Source: Candidatus Omnitrophota bacterium
Lineage (GTDB): Bacteria > Omnitrophota > Gorgyraeia > Gygaellales > JBFMHM01
Assembly: GCA_040753015.1 (NCBI GenBank)
Contig: JBFMHM010000002.1
Span: 102,111-166,110 of the forward strand
Direction of reading: 5' to 3'
Length of the DNA stretch: 64,000 nucleotides
In this document: piece by piece, positions 42,926 through 59,421 of the stretch
Layout of the letters: each line of letters starts with the position of its first letter
How positions within the stretch are numbered: the stretch's first letter is position 1
Notes under the pieces: generated by a model
The model's database searches: none
Told to the model about the DNA's origin: nothing
The model's input: the letters and a program-made list of their open reading frames with translations, nothing else
Translations under genes and position numbers: made by a program

Positions 42926-43561
42926 TCAAGAAAAAATGTGCCGGATTATTTCATCACTTAATGCCTGCCTCGTAACAACCATTTTAATATTCTTAGTACG
43001 ATCTATTATATAAGCAATATGTTTTCTTTTTTTAATCTGTTTTAAATCGTTAGCAACAACTAAATCTGAATTATTTTTTAGTAGATCTTTATAAGAAGAA
43101 TTAATCAGCTCATCTTTATCTTTATTAACTTCTAATTTAAACTGGACTAGAAAAATTTTTGGATCATATTTTTTAATCAACCTGATAATTTTAGGTGTTG
43201 GAATGAGTTTTAAACAAAGATTATTTTTACCAGATTCTATTTTTTGTGCAGAAATTTTTTCAACCCTATAATCGCTTACTGCAGCTAGATGAATTACAGC
43301 ATCATATTTTTTTGTTTTGAGTTCTTGCTCTATTAAAGTAAACAGCTCGTCAAAATATTTAAAACGTTTAATTATAAGATTTGGATTTTTAAGGGTAAAG
43401 CTTTCAGTGACTGGGCCAAGCAATAACGTAACTTTTGCGCCTTGTTTTAGCGCAGTTTTCGTAATAGCAATACCAGTTGCGCCGCTTGAAATATTTGAAA
43501 TTACACGGACTTTGTCAATTGCAACCCATGTTGGGCCGCAAGTTATCAAAATTTTAGGCAT
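42926..43561 (-). CDS. coaB: phosphopantothenate-cysteine ligase (CoaB) as a separate gene
   Basis: It has the CoaB fold ([24 protein letters not shown]). It overlaps the coaC stop by 8 nt. Confidence 0.75.
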
Positions 43562-44129
43562 GCTTAATAATAGTGGATAAAATCAAATCGGCATCTGCCA
43601 TTGCCCCTTTACCAACAGTGCCGCAGGCAAGGCGTGAAATGCGTGGTTCAATAAAAATATATTTTCCGCCTGCTTGCCGGACAGGCAGGGGTATCTTTTT
43701 TAGCGATGCGATATTTTTTTGCATAATCTCGTTTTCCCACATATTTGTATTCATAGCAGGAGCGATTAAAACTTTAGTTTTTTTTGGCAAGGATAAAACT
43801 AATGCCGCTAATAAATTATCGGCAAAACCATAAGAAATTTTTGAGATTATATCTGCTGTGGCTGGGGCAATCACAACTAAATCTGCCCAGTTAGAAAGTT
43901 CAATATGCTGGCAATTAAATTCTGATATGGGTTTAAACATATCAGTGTAAACCGGATTTTGCGTAAGCGACTGAATTGTTAACGGAGTGATAAAATTACA
44001 CGCGTCAGGCGTAAGCACTCCCTTGACATTATAATTTTTGTGCTTTAAAACACTGATTAAATCACACGCCTTATAAGCAGCAATGCTTGCAGTTATTCCA
44101 ATAATGATGTTTTTATTACTAGTAGGCAT
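43554..44129 (-). CDS. coaC: phosphopantothenoylcysteine decarboxylase flavoprotein (CoaC)
   Basis: The flavoprotein N-terminus is IIIGITASIAAYKA. Confidence 0.8.
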   Translation of the reverse strand: MPTSNKNIIIGITASIAAYKACDLISVLKHKNYNVKGVLTPDACNFITPLTIQSLTQNPVYTDMFKPISEFNCQHIELSNWADLVVIAPATADIISKISYGFADNLLAALVLSLPKKTKVLIAPAMNTNMWENEIMQKNIASLKKIPLPVRQAGGKYIFIEPRISRLACGTVGKGAMADADLILSTIIKHA

Positions 44130-44133
44130 ATGT

Positions 44134-44382
44134 TTAAGATGGCTGGGCTATTCTATGTAAAAGCTCAGAAATAAAAGTTTGATACCTTATACCGAGCCGA
44201 TAAGCTTTATGTTTAATGTTTTCTAGGTCTTGCTTATTTACGCGAATATTTAAAACCGCATCTTTCTTCCTTGCAGATATAACACTAATAATTTGTTCGT
44301 ATTCCCGCTTATCCACAGGAACAAAATGCTCAAGATTATCTTCTATCGCCCGCTCTTCTTTTGTTAATTTAATCTTTCTCAT
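44134..44382 (-). CDS. BrnA-like antitoxin (RHH/CopG-like, DUF4415-type)
   Basis: The C-terminal GIRYQTFISELLHRIA resembles the BrnA G.GYQT.IN.ILR.Y motif. It overlaps the upstream toxin by 14 nt. Confidence 0.55.
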   Translation of the reverse strand: MRKIKLTKEERAIEDNLEHFVPVDKREYEQIISVISARKKDAVLNIRVNKQDLENIKHKAYRLGIRYQTFISELLHRIAQPS

Positions 44383-44659
44383 GGTTTCTCCTGTTTTTGT
44401 AAAATTTCGTTAACTTTCTGCTTGGATATATCGTCTTCAAAAATATTATTTCGCCATCTATTACATACGGCACAGCCCACAGATAACCTTTATACTGATA
44501 AATAAGAATTTTCTGATTTTCTCTATTTGGATGCCTACGTATGTCTATTAGCTTTGAAGCAATGATTTCTTCAAACGAAACGCCGCGCGTTTGCTTAAGA
44601 CGCTCGCTCTTTAATTGGCTCCATCTAATATCTTTCATACATTTATTTTGTATATACAA
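44369..44659 (-). CDS. BrnT-like toxin (DUF497, RelE-fold ribonuclease)
   Basis: Conserved elements are W....NE.NQ.KHGVSFEE and RIISAR-like IFLKTIYPSRKLTKFY. The toxin-before-antitoxin order matches BrnTA. Confidence 0.55.
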   Translation of the reverse strand: MYIQNKCMKDIRWSQLKSERLKQTRGVSFEEIIASKLIDIRRHPNRENQKILIYQYKGYLWAVPYVIDGEIIFLKTIYPSRKLTKFYKNRRNHEKD

Positions 44660-44695
44660 TTGTATTATACAAAATAAATAAGTTGTGTCAAGATA

Positions 44696-47600
44696 TTAAT
44701 GATTTAACGCTTCGATTTGGATGAGGCTTAGATCAATGCCGCCAAGGTTAACGGCGCCTTGCGATGGCTGACTTAATGCCTCGGCTGGGCTTTCGCCAGT
44801 GTAAACTCTTGCTCTCTCCTCTAGCGACAATATCGTGCCTGCACGATCGGTTATTTCATCGGAGGAAGCGCCGGCGCGCTGCAATAGCGCCTCGACTGCT
44901 TGATTCCAGTCGGATTGCCTCTTGACTTCTTGTTTTGCCATTATTGAAATAATAACATCTGAAATAAACAATACTATATTACTTATGCCAATAAATCCTA
45001 AAACAATTGGCATCGCAGAAAAAGAAAAACCTAAAGCTATCCCGCCCACCGTTAAATTAGCAAACGGCCCAGCTAATAAAGTAGCTACTTTTTTCCAAGT
45101 TGAAGCTCCCTCATAATTAATATCTGCGCTAGACCAAAGGTTGATCGAATTCACTTTTAATCCAAATAACTTCGCAGTTAAAATATGAGCTGCCTCGTGT
45201 AAAGGCAAAGCAACTACAAAAGCGCTAAACCGTAATAAATTACCCCGCCCGCCCCCCTCTCTTAATAACGCTGCTGTAATTGAACGCGTAGGCTCTCTTC
45301 TATCTACAAAAATAACACCCTTTTTCTTAAAAAAATCATAAAGCTTCTGCTCAGTATCGTAAATCACGCCTAACCTTTCATTATTACTATTTCTATCTTT
45401 ACGAATCGTAGCATTTCTAATTTTATTACCGTTTAAATCGCCATGAAACATTTTTGCGGAAAAGAGATCTGCGTCGGAGAGATCTGCAAAGGAAAGATCT
45501 ACACCACGAAGGTCTGCCTCGGAGAGATTTGCCTTAAAAAGGCTTGCGGTCGAAAGGTCTGCATTGTAAAGGATTGCGCGGGTAAGTCTTGTATTAAAAA
45601 AGCGTGAATTACTAAGGTTTGCTCCGGTAAGGTTTGCATTAAAAAGGTTTGTACGGGAAAGATCTGCGGAGGAAAGATCTGCACCGATAAGATTTACGTA
45701 GCTAAGAATTGCGTTAGTAAGAATTGCACGGGAAAGCTTTGCACCAGAAAGATCTGCGTAGCGAAGCTTTACGCCGGAAAGATCCTTACCAGAAAAATCA
45801 AATTTTGAAAGATCAAGCCTATAAAAAACAGCATTTTTAAAATAAGAAGCTTCGGATAAACTCTTCAAAGCCCTCACAAATTCATCATTAACTACAACTG
45901 TTTGGCCATCTTGAAGAGGCGAGCTTCTAAGATAATCTTGCTTGGCTTGATTAAATTCATCTATTTTTTGTTCTAAAGTTTTACTTGAATCGTTTAAAAT
46001 TTCTGTGAGCTGTTGTAATGTTTCCGCCCAGCCTTCTGGCGAAACGGCTGTAGGCCCGGCAGCTGACGGATCTGCTGGCGGAGTTACATCCGGAGGTGCT
46101 GGTGGCTGTTCATCCTGAGCCTGTCGAAGGACTGGCGCGTCAGCGGCTGGTGCTACAGGCGCAGGAGTTCCAACTTCAGACTCAATTACCTTGCCATCTT
46201 TATCTACTCTTTGCCCTTGCTCGTTAACAAAAATAATACCACGTTCTTGAGTTAAATATCTATATAATCTATCCATATCAAGAGTAACTTCTTTTAAACT
46301 TTTATAGCTTCCTGAATCCAATATCATCGCGTCTTGAATCTTATCTTTATCTAAGTCAGAAAATAACATCCTTGCTCCGGAAAGGTTTGCGTTGGCAAGG
46401 CTTGCGCCGGTAAGGGTTGTACCGCAAAGGTCTGCATTGGAAAGGTTTGCATTAGTAAGGTCTGCGCCAGTAAAATCTGCACCGCGAAAGTCTGCGTAGG
46501 AAAGAACTGCGCCGCGAAGGTCTGCGCCGGAAAGGTCTGCGTTGCGAAGGTCTGCGTAGGGAAGAATTGCGCCGCAAAGGTCTGCGTAGGGAAGAATTGC
46601 GCCGCGAAGGTCTGCGCCGCGAAGGCCTGCGTAGGAAAGAACTGCACCGGAAAGGTTTACGCCGGAAATGTCTGCGTTGCGAAGGTTTGCGTTGCAAAGG
46701 TATGCGTTGCGAAGGTTTAACCTTGAAAGATCTAACCTATAAATAGTACTACCTCTATTATAAAAACATTGTTCTAAACCTTTTATAGCGGTTATAAATT
46801 CAAAATTAACTGCAAGCACCTCACCTTCACTAAGAGGCGAACTTGCAAGAAAATCTTGCTTAGCTTGGTTAAACTCATTTATTTTTTGTTTTAGGGTTTT
46901 ACTAGTATCGCTTAAAATTGCTGTAAGTTGTGTAAGCACACCATCCCAACCTTCTGGCGATACGGCTGTTGCGTCATCTGCAGCTGGCGGATTAGCTGGA
47001 TCCGCTGGCGGAGCTGACGCAGGTGGCTCACCTCGTGGAACCGCAGATGCATCAGCGGTAGGCGCAGCTGCAGCTGAAACAGCACCGTCAATCACATTAC
47101 CATCTTTATCCACAGCTTGCCCTTGCTCGTTAACAAAGATAACACCCCGACTGGTCAGATAATCATACCGCTCTTGTTTAGTTGAATAAACATCATCCAA
47201 TCTTCTCCAAGTCCTAGCATCAATAAATAGTAAAATACCATTAATTTTATCAGTGTCTAAATCACTATAAAACATAACTGTTTGAGAAAGGTCTGGCCCC
47301 ATCTCTTTTTTTCTAGAAATGTATTGCGCGTAAGAAAATATTGCTCCTGATCCCCGACGTGCTATTATTTCAGCATTGCGTCTTAAATACACGTCCTCGG
47401 AAAGATCAAATGGTGCGAAAAGTCTTACACCAGAAATATCCTTTCCAGAAAAATCTAACCTAGAAAGGTCGAGTTGAATACAAATGGCGCTAGCTTGTCT
47501 ATTAAAATACCATGTCCGCTCTAATCTTCTTAAGCCATCCGCAAACGCATCATTAACTTTAAATGTTTGGCTAGATTGAAAAGGAGAGCTTCTAAGATAA

Positions 47601-50600
47601 TCTTGCTTGGCTTGATTAAATTCATCTATTTTTTGTTCTAAAGTTTTACTTGAATCGTTTAAAATTCCTGTGAGCTGTTGTAATGTTTCCGCCCAGCCTT
47701 CTGACGAAACGGCTGTAGCCTCTGCCGCAGGCCTCGCCGTTTCCTGGCGGGCTGGTGACGATGGATCTGCGGGCGGCTCGGCTGGTGGCGGTGCAGGCGC
47801 GTCAGAGGCTGGCGTAGCTAATTTTTCTCTTAAACTAGCAATTAATTGTTCATTATTCGCGCTTTCGCCAGATTCTTTCAGTAAACGAATAAGCTCATTA
47901 ATTACTGCTTGCTGTTGTAATTGCTCTAGAGTAAAACCATTATTAAGAAGCATTAAAATAATTTTAGCAGCCTTATCATCTGTTAGATTCGTTTCGTCTG
48001 CAATAGTCTCTAAAAAATTACCCATTTGTCTATTTACGCTATCCAATAATGCCATATCTATACCTTTTTCTTTTAATAATTGTGCCTGGTTTTGGACAAT
48101 AGCAGTATAGGCGTTGACTTTAAGTAAAGGTTCACTATCAGGAGTTCTTATTGCCATAGCAATAGCATTTGCAAATTCACCTGTTTCTGCACAAACTTGG
48201 ATAATTAAGTCAGAAGCTAAGAGTCTTTTGTAATCGTTACTACTGTCATTGGGAATTTCTTCTGCCGCAGCGCGTGCATTTTTAAGGTTTCTTTCTATTT
48301 TTCGTTTTGGTATTTTTGCTTTTATCTGAACTCTAGCAACAAGAGAATAGGCATTGGTTTTATAAAAAGGCTGGTCCTGATTATCGGGAATTTTTTTTAT
48401 CAAATTAATAATCAATCGCAAAATATCTTCTACTTCATTCATCGGCCTACCTATTTTTGCCTGGGTTTCGGCAATTATAAGAAGAAGGAGCGCTTTCCAA
48501 TATTCACCAGGTGCGAAAGTTCTTTCCGTTAACGTAGAAGCCAATCGCAAAGTATCTTCTACTTCATTCATTGGCCTACCTATTTTTGCCTGGGTTTCGG
48601 CAATAAATGTATAAGCTCTAATTTGGTCATCATAAGTTGCATCTGCATATCTTGTTGGAAGTTTTTCTGCTATATCAAGAGCTTTATTAATGTTTTCGAT
48701 TATTTCTTCTGTTGGCCTACCTGCTTGTGCTTGAGCTTGAGCAATAGAGGTATAGGCTTTAATTTGTGCCCAAGGGTCATAAATGCTTATTTCTTCTACC
48801 ATAATAATAGCCTTGTTAAGACTAGTAGATATTTCATCTTCCGGGCTACCTATTTCGATTTTAACTTGGGCGATAAATGCTTGGACGGCAGCTTGCGATG
48901 CACGATTAAGCGCAGTTGCAGCGATATCGGCTTTATTAATGTTTTCGATTATTTCTTCTGTTGGCCTACCTGCTTGAGCTTGGGCAATGAGTGCATAGGT
49001 CATAGCCTTATCAGGATCATCATCCTCCATCCTTATTACCAGGTTGAGAGCATCATTAAATCTGTTTAACGTTATAAAAGTTTCGATAACAGTGATGGTG
49101 GCTTTTTCTTTTTGGGAAGAATCATCAAATCTTTCTGCTGCTGCGATAGAGGCTAAACGTAAAGCTAAATCTTGCGTATGAATAGTTTTCAAAATTTCTG
49201 GAGTTAATACTACTGGTTCTCTTGCAGGCATTCCTGGATCTGCCGGCGGTTCGTCTAAAGGCGCTTGCGTAGCGGCTGATGCAACTAGCCCAGGAGGAGC
49301 TGGCGCGTCAGGGGCTGGTACTACAGGCGGTGTCGTCGGTTCGTTGCCAAACAAAATTGGAATTCGCGTGGATCTTGGAAAAGTTGGGCTGTCGCCTGTA
49401 CTAGGCGTAAGCCCGCAACTTACTTCAATCGCAGTTTTTGAAACACCTAATTCTCTCATTAAAAAATTAGCCAAAATGCCTTGTAACTGAGAGTGGCCTT
49501 GCAATGCTTTAAGCTGTTCTGTTGCAGCTTGAATAAATGCGGTTTTAATTGATGCGTCTGATTGTTGCGGCTCTGCCGCCTGCCCAGCACTTTGAAGCCT
49601 TGCGTGTTGTTCAGAAAAAAGCGTATGCGCCCGGCCAATAACATAATTAGAAACTCTTACGCCTGCTAACGACCCAGCCAAAACACCAGCCAAACGTTGC
49701 GCCACAAGAGGAACAGCGCTTCCAGCTCCGCCGTTTGGCGCAGTTGGTGAAGCAACACTTACAAAACGTAAAATTGCATCAGGCAGCGCACTTAATGCTT
49801 CTCTTTTTGCTTTTTCTATTTCAAGCATTGTTGCTCCAACTGGCACGCCGATAACTAAAGTTGCAGCCGGCGCAGTATCTGGCGTTTCTACTTCTCCGAT
49901 ATCAACATCCGCAGCAAGTTCAACACCATCTGTCGGTTCAAACCTCACAGCTACTTGAACCTCGGGAATTTCGTCAGTTGCTGGAACTGTGACAGTTTTT
50001 GCATCACGATTTGCTAACTCCACTCTAACTGCTCGCGCTCGTTCTGGAGTTAACTGCTCGAACGTTCTAGGAGCCTGTGGAGTAACGCTAGTTCCACCGG
50101 GTGCCATGCCTACCGGCAGGCAGGCACTAGGATCAGGCTCTGGCCTTGGCCCAGAGTCAACCCATTTTACTTTTTGCCGCATATCAGGGTCAGCTAAAAC
50201 AGTATCTGTTGCATTGGGTGAAACCAAAAACCATTTGCGGCCGCTAATCTCTCCGTCGCAAGCCACAGCGCCTGCTTCAATATCTCTTGCTAAGGCGCAA
50301 TGCCCCAACATCACAACTAAATTATTTTTTTCGCCGGAAAAAAATAAATCTTTAGCTTGTCTGCCAGCATATCTCTGGCAAACTAACGAACCATTATTTT
50401 GATAAATCAACTGGCTATCGCCTGAAACTCTGTCAATTAACTCAAAACTAAAATTTGCATCAGACGGTTTATACAAGCGAATAATCAGCTCTGAATTATC
50501 TTTCTTTAAATATACCTCTATTTTACCGTGTTCATCCTCTAAAGTTTTTCTAATATAAATAGCATTTGGCTCTTCTCTATCCCTAACTTCATCCTGCCTC

Positions 50601-53600
50601 CACTCTAAAGCCTTAAAAATTGCTTCAACTTTCTTTTCTTCAACTTCTTGATAACCGTCAATAGGAATATCGACAAAAAGCTTAGTTGTATTTTGCTCTG
50701 TCTGGTTTGCAAAACTAAATGTTGCGCCTAATTTGCGCAATTCATTTCTAACCCTAAAGTAAGGCTCTAATGCGTGATATTCTTTTCCTTGCATACATAA
50801 ATTACCTAAGTCGCCTTCGCCTGCCTCGAATAAAGCAGTTTTTAACCACTTACGAAGTGGTGCAGAAAAACTTATTTCTAAACGCAAATGATTGCCAAAG
50901 CTAAGCCAACTAACAGTAATTCCGCTATCTGCCAACTCACTTTGCCAACGCTCTATATCATTATTGTCAATTTGTCCAGCCTCTGGTGGTTGGACAAATT
51001 GATCCTGAGCACCGTCGAAGGATCTTAATCTTACGCCAAGCTGAGGCTGGCGATAAACTTCAGCCAATAAGCGGCCTTCTTGATTAAATGCGTGGCGCAT
51101 TGCGGTTTCTTTTTTGGCAAGCGTCAACCACTGGCTAACTAATTGCATTGCAAATCTAATTTGTTGTTTATTTTTATCTGGCTTAGGCACGCTAGTTTTT
51201 AATCTTTGCTTTTCTGCATTCCATTCTCTATCAGGCCTGCAAAAATTAATATCACTAGTTAAGAATGTCTCTGTCCCAGCCATAGCCAAAGCTTCACCTC
51301 TTGTTTCTTCAATAGCCATCCAAGTAATTTCAAGCGCCTCGGTTACAGCTTCTTGGGTAATCTCACTAATTGGCCTTTGGTACAGCTCTTCTAAATTCCT
51401 CATCTGCATTGCTTCAACTTCTGTCATCTCTTGGCCAACAACCCGAGCAACTGCGGGGATAAATTTAAACCTTAAATCTCCGTCCACAACAAAAACCTCA
51501 ATAGCATCACCATCATTCCAAGCATCTCGTTCATATAATCCACTGGCAAATTTAGTTAAATTTTCCTTAAACTTATCCAACACATTAGCAAGCGGCCGCG
51601 CTCCTTGGCCTGCCTCAAACCCAAGCTTGTAAAAATAATCTAGCACTGCCGTCTTATGTTCCGGGCTAACTCTAACCTCAATTGGATAAAACTTATTTCT
51701 TGCATCTTTATAAACCCAATTTTTATAGGGCTTTAGTTTTGCTTCTGCCATTGCCTTAAACATTGCCTCATCCATAAATTTAAACGGAACTATTTTATCA
51801 AGCCGCGCTAAAAATTCCGGACGGTATTTATATTTATGATAAGCTGATATTTGTGCATCTAATTCGTCGTAAAAACGCGTAAGCGCTTCTGAGTCTGTTT
51901 GTGCTGCATCAAGTGCCTTTTTGTATTGCTGGTAAGCGTCTGGCCCACCTGTTTGAGGTGTTAAAAAACGGCCTGTTGCCGCGTCATAAGTTTCTTCAAC
52001 GCCGCCGTTTGAGGTAAAGATAATAATACACTGGCTAAAAGAAACTGTGTTGCCTTTTGAGTCAGTTAAACGCCCATCGTCGGTAAGAGACAATAAAAGC
52101 ATCAATATTTCTTCTTTGTCAACGCGATGCAATTCATCAAATACGATTACACTTTTTGGGTTGCGTTTTACTTGACTGGTCAACCAATTTTCTGAATCAT
52201 CATGCCCAACATATCCGGGCGGTGCACCGATTAATCTCGTGCTAGAATCCATATCAGCCATAGGCACATGAATATAATTATACCCTAACTCGCTAGCTAC
52301 CACCCTTGCTAATTCTGTTTTACCCACACCTGTTGGCCCAGAAAATAAAAAGCTGCCTACAGGTTTATTCGGTCGCTTTAAACCGGATTCAGCACGATAA
52401 ATTGCACTAACCACTAAATCGACCGCCTCATCTTGGCCAACTAAACGGGCTTTAATACGCCCTTTTAAACTTAACAAATCACTAGTCTTTCTCTGGCTAA
52501 CAAGCAAAGAATCAACGCCGCGTTTAATTAAAAATGAGCGCACATCTTCTATTGTCGGGGTAAGCTTTACATCCTGCCTGTCAACACTGCGCCAACGCCT
52601 AATTTCGGCAAGTGATTCTGCTTGTTTTACTGGCTGGCTTCTTCGTTTTGCTGCCTTTATTTTTTCAGCTAAGACACGAGCAATATTACGTTTTTCTTTT
52701 ACCGGTTGTTTTTGTAAACCTATCTCTTTTGCTTTTGCACTATAATGCTGATCGAGAAATTCAGCCAATAACATCTTATGGTCTTCGTCAGCTAAGGCTA
52801 TAGCAAATAACGACAAAGCCTGCTCCATTAATTCAAAAGGCATTAAATCAGTTGTTTCTGGCAAAGCCCCAGTTATCGGCGATATATGCTTTGCATAATA
52901 CGCCCTTCGTAACACAAGCCACATATCTTCAACTTGCCCAGCCTCTGGCGCTTGGGCAAGTTGATCTCGAGTCCCTGCGAGAGATCTTTCTAATAAATCA
53001 ACACGGCTAAACCATTGTTCATAAAGCGGGTCTCTTAACACAGCCTCTGAACTAGTTGATAGAATTAATCTCCCCTTCTGCTCATCTTTAAACGCGCTTA
53101 AGAATTGCCCTAAGTGGAACTCCGCGCCAGTTGGTAAACCATCTCTGCCTTGAGCGCTAATACTAGCTTTTTGAAAACTATCTAAGTCCAAATAAACAAC
53201 CGTGCGTATTCCTTTTTTCTTATCATCGTCGGCAATTGCATCTAAAAGCCTGAGCACAGTTGCCTCAAACTTTCCTGCCAAACTAAATGTAGTTGCAAAA
53301 CTAGAAAACTTTAAACTAAGAACTCTGACATTTTCTTGGCCATTCAATTTTCCCTCACAAGCTAAGCGGCTATATTGCTGGACTAATTGCTCGGTTGCTT
53401 TTTGGTTTTTTGCCCAAAGAAGAGGAAAATTTCTGCGTGCTTGAGCTTGAATTGATAAAACGCTTACCATTGTCTCTGGGTTAATACTTTCTTCGGGAAT
53501 TCTTCCTTGGCTAGAAAACGCCGTCAGATTTACCACCATTTCATTTAATTCTTTTTCTTGCTGTTTTATCTTATCAACTGAAGCTTCATCGGCATCTTCT

Positions 53601-56600
53601 GGAATGGGTAGGGAAATTTTAAGTTTATCATTATTCCAAGCAGCATTAGGCGGAACCTGTGCAACAGGTGTTGGCAAAAGCGCTTGCTTTGCTTCTAAAT
53701 TAGAAGCAGCTAAAATTGCTCTTGTTGTTGGATGAAGCGCCTCTTGCGCTTGTTGCCTAACTACTTCACCTACCGGCTCAGTTAATTTAAAAGTAATTTT
53801 TCCTTCACTATCAGCACTAACTGAAATTTGAGTTCCCTTGGGATATTTTTTTGCAACTAAAATTTCTGCTAATTGCGAACCAATTAAATTATCAATAGCA
53901 CGAGCCATAGGACGCGCGCCATTAACCGCGTCATAGCCTGCCTTAAGAATTACCTCTTTTGCCGCATCATCAAAATTAAGAACATAACCTTGGTTAGCCA
54001 GTTTTTCTTTTAACATATCGAGGATAAAATCGCGGATTTTTTCAATTTCTTTTTTGCGCAAACGCTTAAACACCAAAATTTCACCGATACGGCCTTGCAT
54101 CGAATTTATAAAATAACGATTAATTCTTTTCCTTATTTCATCTTGTATGCTTTCTTCCATAACATCAAGTAACTGACTACGGCTTGCACTACTTAAATCT
54201 TTACCAGCTTCCTCGCTATGCCTATTTACTTGGCTAATTAAGCGGCAAACACCCAGCCTTTCTTCCCTTGCCTTAGACGTCATTACCTTTAATTTTTGAA
54301 TATAATCCCATAGGCCGCCAAACGCCTCTTCGCATTGCCTGCGTTCTTGCGGCAGCAATCCAAATTCATCAAGCCTAGCAAATCTTCCAGCTTCACCTTG
54401 TTTGGGAAATCGATCTGGCACACAATCAGGTTTTTGCGCCCGCAAATATGCCTTTAATGCCGAATCTCTATTTGCAACAAGCGGGCTAATCCAAAATTCC
54501 TCAATATTATCCAAAACATCTTCTAACGTCAGGCGTTCAGGAAGAAAATCTAATTGGACGCTGTTTAATGCCCTGCTAAATACACCGCCCGGTTTAAGCG
54601 TTTCCTCAATAAGTTCAGCCACTTCATTAAACACATCTTTATTATATGCACGAAGCTGAATAGCTGCCTGCTGCAACCTTTGGCGCTTAGCAGCTGCAAC
54701 ACGTCTTCCCATTTCAGGATCCATTGCTTGCAACTCTTTCTGTGGTTCATCTTCAATAGCTACTTCTTTACCAGCTTTTTTGTATTCATCAATTTGCTTT
54801 TCTTTTTCTGTAATTTGACTCTGCAATCTAGTCCTTTCAGCATCGACACTGGCCCTGTAAAAAGCAATCTTAAGCTCATATAATTCGATATATTCACCAA
54901 ACACATCAATAAGTTGCTTAGTGTGTTTAATATGTTCTAAATTTAGCTTAACATTTTGTTCAAGAGAATTCTTGTATTCAGCTTGCTGGCGCTTTAAAAG
55001 CACGAGCAACTGCTCGGCTTTTCTATGCTCGTCGGTAATTTCAACCCTAAACCATGAATAATCACTTGCCGCAAGCTCTGTCTCGTCTTGCGCCTGAGTA
55101 AACTCCTCATCACTCATTAAATCTATTGCATCCATTGCCCGATATGCGTCGTAAATTTCCGGAGTCATGCCTAAATTTGAAGTCATTGCAATTAAGTGAT
55201 TAGTTGCCGATAAAGTTTCTCCTGTTGAACTTTGTGTTGTGCCTGTATCAAATAAATCATATAAATTTTCTAATACATCCGGATGCGCCTTTTCAAGTTC
55301 ATCCAATAAAAGAACACCAATAGGCGAGGCTCGTAAAATTTGCACTAATCGCCCGCCATTTTTATCATAACCAACATAACCTTGCGGTGCGCCCATAAGT
55401 TTTGTTTTAGCAAATTCATCTTGCAGCTCTGCCATATCAATGCGGCCCATTTTGCCGTCAAAAATAAGCTCAGCAATTGCTTTTACAAGCTCGGTTTTTC
55501 TACGCCCGTTGGGCCTGCCAACATAAAAACACCAATTGGTTTATTTGGCTCTTTTTGTCCGTTAACAAATAAACGAATTTTTGCTAAAATGGCATCGACT
55601 ACATGTTCGTGGCCAACATAACGCTTTGCTAAATTTTCTTTAAATCTATCAACGCGCGCTCTAATATCACCGGTTAATAAGCTAACTGTAGTTTGCGCCT
55701 CTTTTGCCAGCGCAGTTAAAACTTCTTCTTCGCTAATTCTTACGGATGGGCCTAAAGTTGTATCTACATCGCTTGCGCCCGCCATTACCATTACCCAATA
55801 ATCCAGGCGGCCAGTTAAAAATTCAACAAGCTCTGGTGTGTTAGCCTGCTCTAACTCGCCAATTAAAGCCAAGGCTCGGCTTCCGGCATAAGCTCTATCT
55901 AAATTACTCCTGTATTCTTGTTTTTTATTTTTATCAACTAAAAGTTTCTGAATTAAATCTATTGCAATTTCCCTTTCTGAAGCTTTAGGCAAGAATTTTT
56001 TAGTATAACCCATAATCCGCTTTAAAAATTCAAACGCATCATCGCTTTCAATTTTTAAATTTAAAAGCTCGTTATGCACGGTTTTAAACCACGGTAACCC
56101 CTCTTCTAAAAGCCGCAAAATTTCATCTGCCTCTTTTTCGAATTCAGGAGAGCTAGATAGCTCGTAACGTTGAGGATACTCCATAATTTGAGATATTTCT
56201 TTCCATTTGTTTCTAGGAAATACCGCCTGAATTGTTTTAGGCTCACCGCCAATAATTACAGGAATTGGGCTTTTAAGAAGCTCATCTAATAACCACTCTA
56301 AGCGCGAGCCAAGCTTAAACTTCAAACTCAAAATTCCCGCGTATTCTTCAGCATCAATATAAAAAGCTAAATTACGGCGCGTGCCTTTTTTTTCTGCATC
56401 GTGATACACCTTGCGCATATTGCTGACAAAAGCGCGAACAACCTTTTCAAAACCATCTGCCTGCAAAAACACTCCGCCGGCTAATAATTTTTTAATATCT
56501 AATTTTAAAATTTCTAACTTTTGTAAAGAAACTGGCAATGGGCTGTCATCAAGGCTTGCTTGATAAGCCAAAGAACGTATTGTCTGCTCTACTTCTCTCG

Positions 56601-59421
56601 GATGGCCGATTAAAATAATATTATTATTACTTGTATTTTTAATTTCATCTAATCTATCTACAAAACCTTGATCTGGCCTTTGGTGTAAACTTAAACTTTG
56701 CGAAGAGCCTTCGAATGTTTCTATCTTGGAAAGATAAGCCATCAAGTTTTCTTCAGTTTCTCCTTCTCTGCCATCGTCTGGATATATAGGAGAATAAAAA
56801 TTACCGCCTACTAGAGGCGCGCCAATCATTGCTGCCATAGCAGCAAAAACATCATCGCCAGAAGAGGCATCACCAAAAAACTTAAAATAAAACCAGCGAA
56901 ATAAATATGCGGCCGGAATTAATAATAAAGGTAACAATAAAGATTTTAATATTGTGGTTTTTGCAGGGCCACTGCCTGGCCTTGGCGATTTTGGACCTTG
57001 ATCATCAGTCTCTGTTTCTGCTGCTTTTTTACGCAATGCGTCCCGTTGTTCTCTAGCGTCTGCGCTATAATCATGATGATGATCAGCATGAACAGTTCCA
57101 TCAGCGTGGCGATGCTGGCCTTCAGGAACACCGTGATGATGTGGATGTCTTGCGCCACTAACGTTACCATCGTGATCGCGGTGAATATGCTTTACAAGCA
57201 TCCTGTTATGTATTCTACCTATCCTAGCCTCTACTTCATTTCTCTTGCCAGCCTTAATTCTAGGCACTCTCGTGCTATAGCCATAACGGGTTTTTTCTAT
57301 TAAGCCTTTTTTAGAAAGTGCACGTTTAATAATTTCCTTTGCTTTATCTTTATCGTTCTCGTCTAACTTTCCTTCACCAATTGCCTGCTCTGCAATTTCA
57401 TCAGCCAACCTCTCAATTACTTCCGGATTATTTGTTCCGTTCTTTCGTAATTTACCATCATTTAAAATATTTAAAAGTCCTCTTGTAATCCAAGTGCGGA
57501 AATTATGCTCCATCGTAAGATCGCTGATATCACTATCTTTATCAGCTTCTTCAACTGACGTATTAATTTCATCTAAGATTTCATTTAACAGTTCCTCATC
57601 GCCTTTATCATCATCTTCATCTTTATCATCTTCATCTTCATAATCATCGCTATTTTTACGGCTATCTTCTATTTGTGCCAACCGCCACATCGGACCACAA
57701 CTCGCTCCTATTGAACCCTCGCTAACATCTACATCTGTATCTTCAGCGATTTTGTTGCCCCTTTTTTGCTCCTCTACTACTCTATTATGCGCTTGTATCC
57801 AATTTAAACCTTGTTTGCGATAATATATTTCGCGTTGTTCGTGCAACAAAACATCAGTATCTAAGGTACTTTGAAAACCAACTATACGCCAAACATTATC
57901 TGTACCTTTAAAATTAATTGCCTGTACGCCATCATCTAAGTTAATTGCCCATCTTTTGAGCACATCAATAATTCTTTGCGCGTCTTGATCCCTAACATTA
58001 TCATTAATCGCAATAATTCGGTTTCCCACATCATCTGTATTAGTTTTAACTGCCCCCAGCTTATCAAGCTGTGTAATACAATATTCAACAATCTCTCGAT
58101 TACTAGCGTTTTGTGATAATTCAGGAACTTTCTTACTTCTTGCCAAAACTCTTAGAATTCTTAAAAGATTTTTTAGATTCTTTACATCAGATACTTCTGC
58201 GCCAATATCTTCTGGTTGCCCAATGCTTACCGTAATTGTAACTGGCACCCTGCCTGCCTCTCCCGCTGTTGCTAGCTGTGTAGGAATTTCTCCTGTTGGC
58301 GCAAAAAGTACACCGCCTGAGGCATAGGTGCGGCGGATTTTATGATTTATCGTAGGGGCGAAACCATGTTTTCGCCCATTAATTATAGGGCGATTACGCG
58401 GAATCGCCCCTACAACATCAACCAATTTGTATTCGCCTTTTGTTGAGTTTAGATAAGATTTGTAGATTTGTTCTGGTTTAAACTTAAGGTTGTTGGTTTT
58501 TTGGTAGGTTTTTATGAATTGCTCTAACTTTTCGCTTTTCGCTTTACTCTTTACGCTTTTTTTGTACCATTGTGCAAAAATGAGTGCTTGATATATTTGT
58601 CTAAGTGGTTCATAGGCTTTGTCTTGGTTTACTCGTTGAGTTAGTTCTGGGAGTATTAGTTGTTTTAGATGAGATTCACAATATTCCTGTAGTTCCTCAG
58701 TTCGTCTGTTCTTCAGTTCGTCAGTTCGTTTGTCATTGGAAATTGGGATTTGGGATTTCTCAAGGTATTCGCTTTCTAGAAGCACCTTGAGCGTTGCTTT
58801 AACTATTGTTATTGAGCTATCTGTCTCATAGACCCTTGCCTCATCTGGCACTATCCAGACACGAAAGGTAGTTGGTACTTTGTAGTTAGTAGTTTGGTTT
58901 TGTTGTTTTGGTCCTAATTTTAAATTTTGAGTTATAGTTTTACCTTTTTCGTTTTGAGTTTTTACTTCCAAAGTTTTGGCTTTAGTAAATACTTTATCCC
59001 AATAGGTTTTAGCATTTTTACCATAACCGGGTAATAATTCAAAGGCTGTGTCTTTCTTAAGCTTTAAATCTAATACTAAGAGCGCTTTACCTAAATCAGT
59101 ATCAGCTATTGTATTGCCGATGATTCTACTTGGGTCATTAGGGTTTAGATTAACCCAAAGATCTTTGTAGTCTATAGATAGGCTAGTAAAGAAATAATCT
59201 AGAAGTTCTTTGGTTTTAAGCTTCTTTTGTTGTTCTGAGAGGTTGCGAGGAAGAAAGTTGAAATTAAAATTAAAACCTGAATTTAGACTAAGCGAAACAA
59301 ACGAGGCGTTTGGGTCATGCACTTTTAGGCTAACAACTTGGCCAAAGCTAATACTCTGGCAAAGAAAGGTAAATGCCAAAAATAGACAAAAAATCCTCTT
59401 TATATGGTTTACTTTAATCAT
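44696..59421 (-). CDS. giant multidomain protein, about 4,900 aa as a single reading frame interrupted by one frameshift near 55.49-55.50 kb
   Basis: ORF 55483..59421 ends ...FMLAGPTGVEKPSL* and ORF 44696..55450 starts MGRIDMAE.. LMGAPQGYVGYD. Restoring one G (GTAGGAAAAACC) gives the contiguous ClpB-D2 sequence [30 protein letters not shown]. The domain content is listed in the findings. Confidence 0.7.
45923..46052. repeat. intragenic direct repeat of ~130 bp, near-identical (3 mismatches) to 47591..47720, with a diverged third copy at ~46845..46975
   Basis: I aligned the two copies by eye (agcttctaagataatcttgcttggcttgattaaattcatctattttttgttctaaagttttacttgaatcgtttaaaat...ccgcccagccttctg.cgaaacggctgtag). 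Each encodes SPEGWAETLQQLT.ILNDSSKTLEQKIDEFNQAKQDYLRSSP. Confidence 0.8.
46340..46760 (-). repeat. pentapeptide-repeat coding block (15-nt periodic tandem units, A(D/N)LxG-type)
   Basis: The protein reads NLRNADISGVNLSGAVLSYAGLRGADLRGAILPYADLCGAILPYADLRNADLSGADLRGAVLSYADFRGADFTGADLTNANLSNADLCG. Two further blocks lie at ~45430..45860 and ~47270..47520. Confidence 0.8.
55493..55503 (-). other. single-nucleotide frameshift site inside the Walker A codons (observed GTAGAAAAACC; GTAGGAAAAACC needed for GPTGVGKT)
   Basis: The downstream frame is open through the site and encodes ...[29 protein letters not shown]. The upstream frame terminates 3 codons later. Confidence 0.7.

What the first reader, a model, noticed from the sequence alone, without database searches (positions are those of the whole stretch)
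51900..56640. Three Clp-type nucleotide-binding modules, only some catalytically plausible
The module at about 56.0-56.6 kb has a ClpB D1-like context but no P-loop (IILIGHPREVEQTIRSLA). The module at about 55.16-55.62 kb is an intact D2, apart from the frameshift. The module at about 52.0-52.46 kb is a second intact D2 with a sensor-2-like motif (GARPLANVLDK). No middle (M) domain or N-domain is recognisable. An internal repeat of unfoldase modules within one polypeptide is unusual, since Clp/Hsp100 proteins normally oligomerise as hexamers of two-ring protomers.
Basis: partly seen in the sequence, partly recalled or inferred. Interest (0 to 1): 0.5.

Follow-up and report, generated by a model that had tools for sequence, protein, structure and literature searches.

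The report
Tandem Clp-like unfoldase in giant protein
One giant membrane protein of an Omnitrophota bacterium carries two complete ClpB/ClpC-like unfoldase units in a row, each with a dead first ATPase module and an intact second one; I found no description of this layout, which is shared by a small family of giant proteins.

Summary
It missed a fourth: a second P-loop-less D1 at window 52796-53494. The region is the core of one minus-strand gene (59421..44696), which reads as 4,908 aa if a single missing G at position 55500 is restored.

The layout is [pseudo-D1, helical hairpin, D2] twice, which amounts to two complete class-I Clp/Hsp100 protomers fused in tandem.
- **D2 modules:** both keep every catalytic motif.
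- **Absent features:** there is no Clp N-domain and no ClpP-docking loop.
- **Insertion:** the first D2 carries a 330-aa insertion where that loop would sit.

At least nine other giant proteins (2,881-7,819 aa) share the cassette, with about 1,000 aa between the two P-loops. All the named ones come from Omnitrophota MAGs.

Most likely this is a membrane-anchored ring unfoldase powered by D2, with the D1 modules as scaffold, comparable to Pex1/Pex6. Stoichiometry, substrate and the status of the frameshift are open. I rate it a new variant of a known kind, of moderate to high interest.

The parts
44696..59421 (-). The whole giant gene. As deposited it is two ORFs, 59421..55483 (1,312 aa) and 55450..44696 (3,584 aa). 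Restoring one G gives a single 4,908-aa reading frame.
   Evidence: The two halves match NCBI proteins of a Candidatus Omnitrophota MAG. P0241 (MEW5758408.1) ends with the exact ORF B sequence after 9 extra residues from an ATT start. P0001 (AB1755_02935) is ORF A read from a downstream start.
59332..59403 (-). N-terminal hydrophobic segment (aa 7-30), either a signal peptide or a membrane anchor.
   Evidence: Kyte-Doolittle peak of 1.7.
57130..57675 (-). Acidic run followed by a His-rich run (aa 583-764). It is collinear with the 'EKHDIR...HHHH' region that precedes the cassette in relatives.
   Evidence: Weak, compositionally biased HMM match to the family's pre-D1 region. Sequences.
56884..56955 (-). 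Transmembrane segment (aa 823-846) just upstream of the ATPase core.
   Evidence: Kyte-Doolittle peak of 1.9.
55993..56670 (-). Pseudo-D1 number 1 (aa 918-1143), an AAA+ large subdomain plus lid. By alignment to ClpB: the P-loop reads GHPRE-VE (Lys to Val, Thr to Glu, one residue deleted), Walker B is YIDA (Glu to Ala), sensor-1 Thr is lost and the Arg-finger pair RR reads EY.
55759..55977 (-). Helical hairpin number 1 (aa 1149-1221) at the position of the ClpB/ClpC middle domain.
   Evidence: AlphaFold helices 257-300 and 304-329, pLDDT about 67-89. The family profile spans the M-domain columns of ClpB with gaps.
55151..55746 (-). D2 number 1, N-terminal helices and large subdomain (aa 1226-1424). 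Motifs: Walker A GPTGV[G]KT (K1309), pore loop GYVG (Y1349), Walker B D1374/E1375, sensor-1 N1416.
   Evidence: Pfam AAA_2 at 5.8e-34. ClpB D2 at 1.5e-57. Motifs.
55495..55501 (-). Frameshift site, gta g^aaaaa cc. One G is missing relative to GTA GGA AAA ACC (V-G-K-T). The stop of the upstream ORF is at 55483-55485.
   Evidence: All relatives read GPTGVGKTE without interruption. An unrelated Clp gene has the identical 29 nt with the extra G.
54161..55150 (-). A 330-aa, mostly helical insertion in D2 number 1 (aa 1425-1754), between sensor-1 and the Arg-finger helix. This is where ClpA/C/X carry the ClpP-docking loop.
   Evidence: Gap between the ClpB-profile matches. Relatives have 100-200 aa at the same place. 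No [ILV]G[FL] motif beyond the conserved SNLGM.
53777..54160 (-). D2 number 1, C-terminal part (aa 1755-1882): Arg finger R1778, D2-small domain and sensor-2 GARPM (R1837).
   Evidence: Pfam ClpB_D2-small at 2.8e-18. Alignment to ClpB 211-328.
53495..53776 (-). Linker between the two units (aa 1883-1976), Pro-rich and then helical.
   Evidence: No profile match. Relatives have a longer coiled-coil-like linker.
52796..53494 (-). The P-loop position reads LWAKNQKATE (all three Gly lost, Lys to Thr). The Walker B position reads LDLDS.
   Evidence: hhalign of the family alignment against ClpB/C/A, E 1.6e-12, and against pseudo-D1 number 1, E 1.2e-16. AlphaFold model. Foldseek aligns about 700 columns to whole ClpC/ClpB/ClpA protomers.
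52589..52780 (-). Helical hairpin number 2 (aa 2215-2278) at the M-domain position.
   Evidence: AlphaFold helices 239-285 and 291-302.
51458..52555 (-). D2 number 2, complete (aa 2290-2655). Motifs: K2368, Y2404, D2429/E2430, N2472, Arg finger R2540, sensor-2 GARPL (R2609).
   Evidence: Pfam AAA_2 at 2.4e-30. ClpB and ClpC at about 1e-49. Motifs. pLDDT 80-93.
50582..51421 (-). Conserved domain of unknown function after the second D2 (aa 2668-2947), shared by the family.
   Evidence: Family HMM match, i-E 1.9e-9 for aa 2832-2947. No Pfam or NCBIfam hit.
45428..47545 (-). Variable payload of this family member: three pentapeptide-repeat blocks.
   Evidence: Pfam Pentapeptide at 1.2e-69. DNA repeats.
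44933..45226 (-). C-terminal membrane domain with HEAAH, resembling an M50 (site-2 protease) zincin.
   Evidence: Pfam Peptidase_M50 at 26.1 bits against a cut-off of 27.2, plus DUF3267 and M50B. Hydropathy peaks.

Best explanation
The flagged region is the ATPase core of one giant, membrane-anchored protein of a Candidatus Omnitrophota bacterium.

**Shown**
- The core is two complete class-I Clp/Hsp100-type protomers fused head to tail. Each consists of a pseudo-D1, a short helical hairpin where ClpB and ClpC have their middle domain, and a D2 with its small domain.
- Both pseudo-D1 modules have the D1 fold in the models. They have lost the P-loop lysine and threonine, the Walker B glutamate, sensor-1 and the arginine fingers.
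- Both D2 modules keep Walker A and B, the pore-loop tyrosine, sensor-1 Asn, the arginine finger and the sensor-2 GAR motif.
- There is no Clp N-domain and no ClpP-docking tripeptide.
- The cassette is conserved, with about 1,000 aa between the two P-loops. It sits in at least nine other giant proteins with otherwise different domain content.

**Inferred**
- Only the D2 modules burn ATP and grip substrate. The pseudo-D1 modules serve as a nucleotide-independent scaffold tier. The Pex1/Pex6 heterohexamer is organised this way (inactive D1 ring, active D2 ring).
- Each chain supplies two different protomers, so the simplest assembly is a trimer forming an alternating six-protomer double ring. 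Covalently cross-linked ClpA dimers are known to form working pseudohexamers.
- A six-chain, four-tier stack is the main alternative.
- The substrate is unknown. Without a ClpP loop the motor is ClpB/Hsp104-like (remodelling or extraction) rather than a ClpP partner.

**Frameshift**
- The single missing G in the first D2's Walker A is either a consensus error or strain variant in the MAG, or a very recent inactivation. Every relative is uninterrupted at this point, and the 3,584 codons downstream are still open.
For: **Two D2s**
- Pfam AAA_2 at 5.8e-34 and 2.4e-30, and ClpB_D2-small at 2.8e-18.
- PDB sequence hits to ClpB, ClpC, ClpA and Hsp104, with E-values from 1e-57 to 1e-37.
- Catalytic motifs are intact here and across the family.

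**Two pseudo-D1s**
- A ClpB-family profile places the segments in the order D1, D2, D2-small, D1, D2 plus D2-small in this protein and in every full-length relative. Domain i-E-values for the degenerate D1 reach 2.9e-16 in relatives.
- Profile-profile E-values are 3.5e-17, 1.6e-12 and, between the two pseudo-D1s, 1.2e-16.

**Family**
- Exhaustive HMMER found giants of 2,881 to 7,819 aa with the same cassette.
- All the named ones are Candidatus Omnitrophota MAG proteins.
- Accessory domains vary: M50, NHL, GNAT, HEAT, HATPase_c, Fic.

**Negative features and topology**
- No ClpP loop and no Clp_N domain.
- Transmembrane segments flank the core.

**Precedents**
- Cross-linked ClpA dimers form active pseudohexamers, and D2 is the stronger motor (PMC7568338).
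- Pex1/Pex6 is an alternating heterohexamer with an inactive D1 ring and an active D2 ring (PMC10518020).

**Frameshift**
-.
Against: - No experiment or multimer model supports ring formation, the stoichiometry or unfoldase activity. These rest on analogy.
- In canonical ClpA and ClpB, nucleotide binding to D1 helps hexamer assembly (my own knowledge). Without it, assembly may need something else.
- As deposited, the gene is broken inside the Walker A of the first D2, so in this organism the cassette may be non-functional.
- The window's protein is the most divergent family member, at 15-29% identity in the D1-like modules. Its own D1-like segments match ClpB only weakly without the family profile.
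- The AlphaFold models are of moderate confidence: mean pLDDT 67.7 and 76.9, pTM 0.45 and 0.51.
- In relatives P0253 and P0254, the pore-loop Tyr and the Arg finger are lost together in the first D2. That fits homotypic stacked rings slightly better than an alternating ring.
Confidence: 0.6

Rival explanations
1. The gene is a pseudogene in this genome. The 1-nt deletion is real, so the first D2 is cut through its P-loop and the cassette no longer works here. What we see is a decaying member of the family.
For: The deposited sequence has the frameshift, and NCBI annotates two separate proteins. The site is a GG dinucleotide and not a long homopolymer, so it is not a classic homopolymer sequencing error. 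A -1 slip on A-AAA would give GPTGVEKT, a defective P-loop, so programmed frameshifting would not rescue it (inference).
Against: There are no other stops or shifts across 14.7 kb, and every D2 motif is intact. Any inactivation would therefore be very recent. MAG consensus sequences do carry occasional indel errors and strain variants (my own knowledge). The family as a whole is under clear constraint.
Confidence: 0.25
2. The architecture is the same but the assembly differs. Six chains stack four homotypic rings (pseudo-D1, D2, pseudo-D1, D2) into one long channel, instead of three chains forming an alternating double ring.
For: Homotypic ring contacts are the default for Clp/Hsp100 (my own knowledge). 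In P0253 and P0254 the Arg finger and the pore-loop Tyr degenerate together in the first D2 while the second D2 stays intact, as expected if each D2 type forms its own ring. The insertion at the bottom face of the first D2 could form the interface to the next tier.
Against: A linker of 95-200 aa between the units is not needed for direct stacking. The 100-335-aa insertion would have to be accommodated between tiers. No four-tier Clp assembly is known to me. None of this was tested here.
Confidence: 0.3
3. The cassette is a ClpA/ClpC-type partner of a peptidase. It feeds substrates to ClpP, or in cis to the M50-like zinc protease domain, in the manner of FtsH.
For: The top Foldseek hits are ClpC and ClpA from ClpP complexes. 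This protein ends in an HEAAH membrane domain, and relative P0242 starts with a bona fide M50 domain.
Against: There is no [ILV]-G-[FL] docking loop in either D2. M50-like domains were detected only in this protein and P0242 among the seven members scanned. The window's M50 match is below Pfam's cut-off. The active site of an intramembrane M50 protease does not form a chamber that docks under an AAA+ ring (my own knowledge).
Confidence: 0.07
4. The modules do not form a translocating ring. The two D2s act as ATP-dependent switches or clamps that regulate the conformation of the giant protein's other domains.
For: The accessory domains are very diverse, and the cassette always sits inside a much larger chain. 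AAA+ modules with switch roles exist (my own knowledge).
Against: In most family members both D2s conserve the pore-loop tyrosine, the trans-acting arginine finger and sensor-2. These matter only for ring assembly and substrate threading.
Confidence: 0.08

Closest known systems
ClpC / ClpB / ClpA / Hsp104 (class-I Clp/Hsp100 AAA+ unfoldases)
   Same: - Each unit has the order D1, helical insertion, D2, D2-small.
- The D2 is of the AAA_2 type, with GYVG pore loop, sensor-1 Asn, Arg finger and GAR sensor-2.
- These proteins are the best sequence, profile and fold matches.
- Like ClpB and Hsp104, it has no ClpP-docking loop.
   Different: - Two protomers sit in one chain.
- Both D1 modules lack every catalytic motif.
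- There is no N-domain.
- The hairpin at the M-domain position is shorter than in ClpB.
- The first D2 carries an insertion of 100-335 aa.
- The cassette is membrane-anchored inside a protein of 3-8 thousand residues.
- Scores are far below the NCBIfam cut-offs for ClpB, ClpA, ClpV, ClpK and ClpG.
Pex1/Pex6 peroxisomal AAA-ATPase
   Same: This is a resemblance in how it works. Two diverged double-ring protomers act together, the D1 tier is catalytically inactive and structural, and the D2 tier is the motor. The complex is recruited to a membrane (PMC10518020).
   Different: - Pex1 and Pex6 are separate polypeptides.
- Their degenerate D1s still bind ATP.
- Pex1/Pex6 is eukaryotic.
Engineered covalently linked Clp unfoldases (cross-linked ClpA dimers)
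   Same: Two protomers are joined covalently and assemble as a trimer of dimers into an active pseudohexamer. Three active D2 modules are enough for translocation (PMC7568338).
   Different: Those are laboratory constructs of identical protomers with functional or point-mutated D1. Here the fusion is natural, the protomers are diverged paralogues, and assembly has not been tested.
Giant multi-domain proteins of Omnitrophota
   Same: Same phylum and same style of very long, membrane-anchored chains with mixed domains (10.1101/2023.11.21.568195 and 10.64898/2026.06.07.730766).
   Different: Neither paper contains a word beginning with 'Clp'. Their only ATPase mentions are AAA_5, HATPase_c and V/A-type ATPase. 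The tandem cassette is not described there.

Membership tests
Class-I Clp/Hsp100 (ClpA/ClpB/ClpC/Hsp104) | Two AAA+ modules per protomer in the order D1 then D2, with an AAA_2-type D2 followed by the D2-small domain. | tested here: met
   Present twice in one chain. Collinear profile matches, Pfam and Foldseek over about 700 columns to whole protomers. Pfam did not call D2-small for the second unit in this protein; the ClpB alignment covers it there.
Class-I Clp/Hsp100 (ClpA/ClpB/ClpC/Hsp104) | D1 with functional Walker A (GxxxxGK[ST]), Walker B (hhhhDE), sensor-1 and Arg fingers. | tested here: not met
   Both D1-like modules lack them, here and in all relatives (alignments). There are only two P-loops per protein.
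Class-I Clp/Hsp100 (ClpA/ClpB/ClpC/Hsp104) | D2 catalytic set: Walker A and B, pore-loop Tyr, sensor-1 Asn, Arg finger, sensor-2 GAR. | tested here: met
   Both D2s, once the missing G is restored in the first.
Class-I Clp/Hsp100 (ClpA/ClpB/ClpC/Hsp104) | N-terminal Clp repeat (Clp_N) domain. | tested here: not met
   No PF02861 hit at E up to 0.1.
ClpB / ClpA / ClpV / ClpK / ClpG equivalogs (NCBIfam) | Whole-protein score above the curated cut-off. | tested here: not met
   The best score is 197 bits against a ClpB cut-off of 1232. ClpA scores 195 against 993.
ClpB/Hsp104 disaggregases | Long coiled-coil middle domain that binds Hsp70/DnaK. | tested here: inconclusive
   A shorter two-helix hairpin is predicted at that position in both units. 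The top Foldseek hits are ClpC. DnaK binding cannot be tested with these tools.
ClpA/ClpC/ClpX (ClpP partners) | [LIV]-G-[FL] ClpP-docking loop between sensor-1 and the Arg-finger helix. | tested here: not met
   No such tripeptide in either D2 apart from the conserved SNLGM.
Class-I Clp/Hsp100 (ClpA/ClpB/ClpC/Hsp104) | Hexameric ring assembly with a central substrate channel. | not testable with these tools
   No multimer prediction or experiment is available.
Unnamed Omnitrophota tandem-Clp giant-protein family (P0242-P0254, P0276) | Cassette of pseudo-D1, D2 with insertion, linker, pseudo-D1, D2, then a conserved domain after the second D2. About 1,000 aa separate the two P-loops. | tested here: met
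   Spacing here is 1,059 aa, against 857-1,041 in relatives. Collinear domains. The post-D2 domain matches at i-E 1.9e-9.
Pex1/Pex6-type AAA | Membership by sequence or fold, as opposed to working like one. | tested here: not met
Peptidase M50 (C-terminal domain, outside the finding) | HExxH within a membrane helix and a Pfam score above the gathering cut-off. | tested here: inconclusive
   HEAAH is present among hydrophobic segments. The score is 26.1 bits against a cut-off of 27.2.

The most novel reading that the evidence does not exclude
The cassette is a natural single-chain pseudohexamer. Three giant chains each contribute two diverged Clp-like protomers to one alternating ring, with a nucleotide-free D1 scaffold tier and a six-site D2 motor. 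The ring is anchored in the inner membrane. It acts as a built-in engine that unfolds, extracts or deploys protein cargo for the variable payload domains of Omnitrophota giant proteins, possibly including the giant chain itself. That would be a new way of building an asymmetric AAA+ unfoldase, and the first functional clue for part of the Omnitrophota giant-protein repertoire.
Probability: 0.2. Interest if true: 0.8.

Novelty: new variant of a known kind. Interest (0 to 1): 0.58.

Why it matters
- **Rarity of the layout.** AAA+ unfoldases normally build their rings from six separate one- or two-module chains. Chains carrying many AAA+ modules are known to me from dynein, midasin and RNF213, and not from the Clp/Hsp100 clade.
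- **A natural version of a laboratory design.** Here two diverged Hsp100 protomers are fused by evolution and both D1 tiers are reduced to scaffolds. Laboratories build similar designs by cross-linking to study how ring subunits divide labour.
- **What it could test.** It offers a defined system for asking how much of a double-ring unfoldase can be catalytically silent, and how assembly works without nucleotide in D1.
- **Relevance to Omnitrophota.** It also puts a recognisable motor inside some of the poorly understood giant proteins of this phylum. Public databases label these proteins only as 'AAA family ATPase' or 'ClpA'.

Tried and rejected
**Searches that led nowhere**
- Exact-sequence look-ups of ORF A and of P0001 found no contig on record.
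- Word-indexed protein searches with 1,800-aa and 901-aa fragments returned ordinary ClpB/ClpC/ClpA-like proteins, plus P0001, which is ORF A itself. Hit lengths were about 0.55-1.05 times the query, so the giant relatives were missed. This apparent length filter is my inference from the hit lists.
- The full-length 4,908-aa query timed out.
- A scan of GTDB species genomes with aa 1-1270 found no relative.
- A metagenome scan for the frameshift locus, with or without the extra base, found nothing. The frameshift therefore could not be checked against an independent assembly.
- Single-sequence profile comparison of the D1-like segments was weak or missed them. Family alignments were needed.

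**Ideas considered and rejected**
- **Programmed -1 frameshifting.** There is no X-XXY-YYZ heptamer. Slippage of tRNA-Lys on A-AAA would give GPTGVEKT, replacing the invariant P-loop glycine. All relatives encode GVGKT in one frame.
- **Two genuinely separate genes.** The split falls inside a Walker A motif.
- **ClpP partnership.** No docking loop is present.
- **The neighbouring coaC/coaB split as a sign of an indel-prone assembly.** The junction has a proper ATG and an 8-nt overlap at the domain boundary, which looks natural.
- **Conserved synteny.** The context of relative P0253 is unrelated to the window's miaA-hflX / coaCB-mreBCD surroundings.
Full report
**1. What is in the sequence**

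The finding lies inside one very long minus-strand reading frame. As deposited it is two ORFs, 59421..55483 (1,312 aa) and 55450..44696 (3,584 aa). They meet inside a Walker A motif. The upstream ORF ends ...GPTGVEKPSL*, and the next frame continues ...RKTELVKAIAELIFDGKMGRIDMAELQ.

Inserting one G at window 55500 turns gta g^aaaaa cc into GTA GGA AAA ACC. That gives GPTGVGKTELV and a single 4,908-aa frame with no other interruption. The two halves match two NCBI proteins from a Candidatus Omnitrophota MAG, on a contig of 260,384 bp. One is a 'hypothetical protein' (AB1755_02935), which is ORF A read from a downstream start. The other is a 'pentapeptide repeat-containing protein' (MEW5758408.1), which is ORF B exactly, extended by 9 residues from an ATT start.

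The flanks are ordinary chromosome: miaA and hflX upstream; coaC, coaB, mreB, mreC, mreD, PBP2 and rodA downstream.

**2. Checking the three reported modules**

All three are there.
- **First D2:** matches Pfam AAA_2 at 5.8e-34 and T. thermophilus ClpB D2 at 1.5e-57.
- **Second D2:** matches AAA_2 at 2.4e-30, and ClpB and ClpC at about 1e-49.
- **Motifs:** both carry the full catalytic set.

| Motif | First D2 | Second D2 |
|---|---|---|
| Walker A Lys | K1309 | K2368 |
| Pore-loop Tyr (GYVG) | Y1349 | Y2404 |
| Walker B Asp/Glu | D1374/E1375 | D2429/E2430 |
| Sensor-1 Asn | N1416 | N2472 |
| Arg finger (by alignment to T. thermophilus ClpB R747) | R1778 | R2540 |
| Sensor-2 Arg (GARP) | R1837 | R2609 |

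The first D2 is not compact. A 330-aa, mostly helical insertion (aa 1425-1754) separates its large subdomain from the Arg-finger helix and the D2-small domain (Pfam ClpB_D2-small, 2.8e-18).

The P-loop-less segment IILIGHPREVEQT is at aa 935-947. By itself it aligns to a ClpB profile only weakly, though in register (2.6 bits). A single-sequence hhalign missed it.

**3. A fourth module**

Upstream of the second D2 is another degenerate D1: RNFPLLWAKNQKATEQLVQQYSRLACEGKLNGQENVRVLSLKFSSFATTFSLAGKFEATVLRLL. It runs parallel to ClpB's [26 protein letters not shown]...RVLALD.GAL.AGAKYRGEFEERLK. The layout is therefore D1', D2, D1', D2: two complete Clp/Hsp100 protomers.

**4. Relatives**

The word-indexed searches returned only ordinary ClpB-like proteins of about the query's length. 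An exhaustive HMMER search with unit 2 found a set of giants that match across both the degenerate D1 and the D2:
- Full-length members: P0242 (4,189 aa), P0243 (4,896), P0244 (7,819), P0245 (3,304), P0248 (4,355), P0249 (2,881), P0253 (5,570), P0254 (5,016) and P0276 (4,718).
- Several fragments in addition.

Shared properties:
- A ClpB/ClpC/ClpA profile hits every full-length member in the order D1, D2, D2-small, D1, D2 plus D2-small. Significant domain E-values for the degenerate D1s reach 2.9e-16.
- The GxxGxGK[ST] search found two P-loops in eight of the nine. They lie 857-1,041 aa apart, against 1,059 aa here. In P0276 the first reads AGTGVGKT.
- All have an insertion of 100-200 aa at the same place in the first D2.
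- All share a conserved domain of about 280 aa after the second D2. It matches the window's aa 2832-2947 at i-E 1.9e-9.
- All that carry a name are Candidatus Omnitrophota MAG proteins, labelled 'AAA family ATPase' or 'ClpA'.
- Outside the cassette the domain content differs: M50 protease and NHL; GNAT and HEAT; WD40; histidine-kinase ATPase and Fic.
- The genomic context of P0253 is unrelated to the window's.

**5. Are the degenerate modules really D1?**

Sequence evidence, using family alignments trimmed of every D2 residue:
- Module 1 matches the D1 columns of a 30-sequence ClpB/ClpC/ClpA alignment at E 3.5e-17, probability 98.9%.
- Module 2 matches at E 1.6e-12, probability 97.7%.
- The two match each other at E 1.2e-16.

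The alignments show what was lost.
- **Module 1:** the P-loop G-E-P-G-V-G-K-T has become G-H-P-R-E-(gap)-V-E. Walker B F-I-D-E has become Y-I-D-A. The sensor-1 Thr is gone, and the Arg-finger pair RR reads EY.
- **Module 2:** all three P-loop glycines and the lysine are replaced.
- **Family:** no member has GK[ST] at either position.

Structure evidence:
- The AlphaFold models used only the family alignments and no templates. They give an alpha-beta-alpha core with five strands in the expected order, a helical lid and then a two-helix hairpin. Mean pLDDT is 67.7 for unit 1 (D1' to the start of D2) and 76.9 for the whole of unit 2.
- Foldseek aligns unit 2 over about 700 columns to whole ClpC, ClpB and ClpA protomers, with E-values from 5e-35 to 1e-29.

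**6. What is absent**

- No Clp_N domain.
- No ClpP-docking [ILV]-G-[FL] loop in either D2.
- Scores far below every NCBIfam Clp equivalog cut-off.
- The helical hairpins at the M-domain position are shorter than ClpB's middle domain. The closest folds are ClpC.

**7. Age of the duplication**

The two D2s are 38% identical. In a rough neighbour-joining tree most second D2s group together, while the first D2s form a looser grade. Apart from P0276, no member's two D2s pair with each other. The tandem arrangement therefore appears to predate the family's diversification.

**8. The frameshift**

- Relative to the family and to the canonical motif, exactly one G is missing.
- An unrelated Clp gene in a [Eubacterium] saphenum MAG has the same 29 nucleotides with the G present.
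- A -1 slip on A-AAA would produce GPTGVEKT, which lacks the invariant glycine, and there is no slippery heptamer. I therefore reject programmed frameshifting (inference).
- No independent assembly of this locus was found. The 90%-identity protein cluster holding ORF B has no other member.
- I cannot decide between a consensus error or strain variant and a very recent inactivation. The 14.7 kb are otherwise intact, which argues against long-standing decay.

**9. How it probably works**

What is shown is the architecture, the motif states, the conservation of the cassette and the hydrophobic segments flanking it (aa 7-30, aa 823-846 and the C-terminal HEAAH domain).

The rest is inferred. The ATPase core should face the cytoplasm and form a ring. 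The D2 modules would hydrolyse ATP and thread substrate with their tyrosine pore loops. The trans-acting arginine finger and sensor-2, conserved in most members, make sense only in a ring. The pseudo-D1 modules would be a structural tier.

Two precedents make this plausible.
- Pex1/Pex6 is an alternating heterohexamer with an inactive D1 ring and an active D2 ring (PMC10518020).
- Covalently cross-linked ClpA dimers assemble into functional pseudohexamers. In them three active D2 modules suffice, and D2 is the stronger motor (PMC7568338).

A trimer of tandem chains giving an alternating ring is the simplest model. A six-chain, four-tier stack is the main alternative. It is slightly favoured by one observation: the pore loop and the Arg finger degenerate together in the first D2 of P0253 and P0254.

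Without a ClpP loop the motor should remodel or extract proteins and not feed ClpP. A link to the M50-like domain is possible but is not a family trait.

**10. Novelty**

These proteins sit in public databases under generic names. In the literature I could search:
- The two papers on Omnitrophota giant proteins contain no word beginning with 'Clp'.
- A search for multi-module Hsp100 chains found no natural example.

I rate it a new variant of a known kind: a Clp/Hsp100 unfoldase built as a tandem of protomers with silent D1 modules, inside giant membrane proteins.

Noticed in passing
window 44933-45226 (minus strand; aa 4733-4830): C-terminal membrane domain with an HEAAH motif. It resembles site-2-protease-type (M50) zincins and scores just under Pfam's cut-off (26.1 against 27.2 bits). 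Relative P0242 carries a clear M50 domain at its N-terminus instead.
   Followed up: partly
window 45428-47545, with repeats at 45877-46063, 46795-46981 and 47542-47728: Three pentapeptide-repeat blocks with 15-nt periodicity. Each is preceded by a unit of about 187 nt repeated at 72-91% identity, which suggests recent internal duplication of the payload region.
   Followed up: partly
window 48276-48985: Near-identical DNA repeats of 56-63 nt (96-97% identity) inside a helical, TPR-like repeat region (AQAQAGRPTEEIIENINKA...).
   Followed up: no
window 44000-58000 compared with the flanks: GC content is 38-44% across most of the giant gene, against about 28-36% in the surrounding housekeeping genes. 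The 5' end of the gene (58-59.4 kb) matches the flanks. This could reflect Ala/Pro-rich composition or a foreign, mosaic origin.
   Followed up: no
window 57130-57675 (aa 583-764): An acidic run (DDYEDEDDKDEDDDKGDEE) followed by a His-rich run (HPHHHG...HADHHHD) between the N-terminal region and the transmembrane segment. It is collinear with an 'EKHDIR ... HHHH' region in relatives and may bind metal.
   Followed up: partly
window 43554-43561: coaC and coaB are separate ORFs overlapping by 8 nt (ATGCCTAA), and not the fused coaBC gene found in E. coli. The junction looks like natural translational coupling and not a frameshift.
   Followed up: yes
L001 3591-3619 ([Eubacterium] saphenum MAG, SFHN01000155.1): An unrelated Clp ATPase gene contains the same 29-nt Walker A string as the window, with the extra G (gtaGGaaaaacc). 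It pinpoints the missing base.
   Followed up: yes
relatives P0253 and P0254, first D2: The pore loop is GPPPAIIG (no tyrosine) and the Arg-finger position is Lys (FLNKL), while the second D2 stays canonical. The first D2 appears to be starting to degenerate in this branch.
   Followed up: partly
alignment A4 (second pseudo-D1), window about 53180-53200: Acidic residues at the Walker B position stay conserved across the family (I-D-F-D-[DE]; one Asp invariant, one at 90% or more) although the P-loop is gone. The window's own sequence reads LDLDS. The reason is unexplained.
   Followed up: no
whole window: Of 47 ORFs of at least 150 aa, all but three lie on the minus strand, and those three overlap longer minus-strand ORFs. 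GC skew is negative in all but one 2-kb window. No tRNA genes occur in 64 kb.
   Followed up: no
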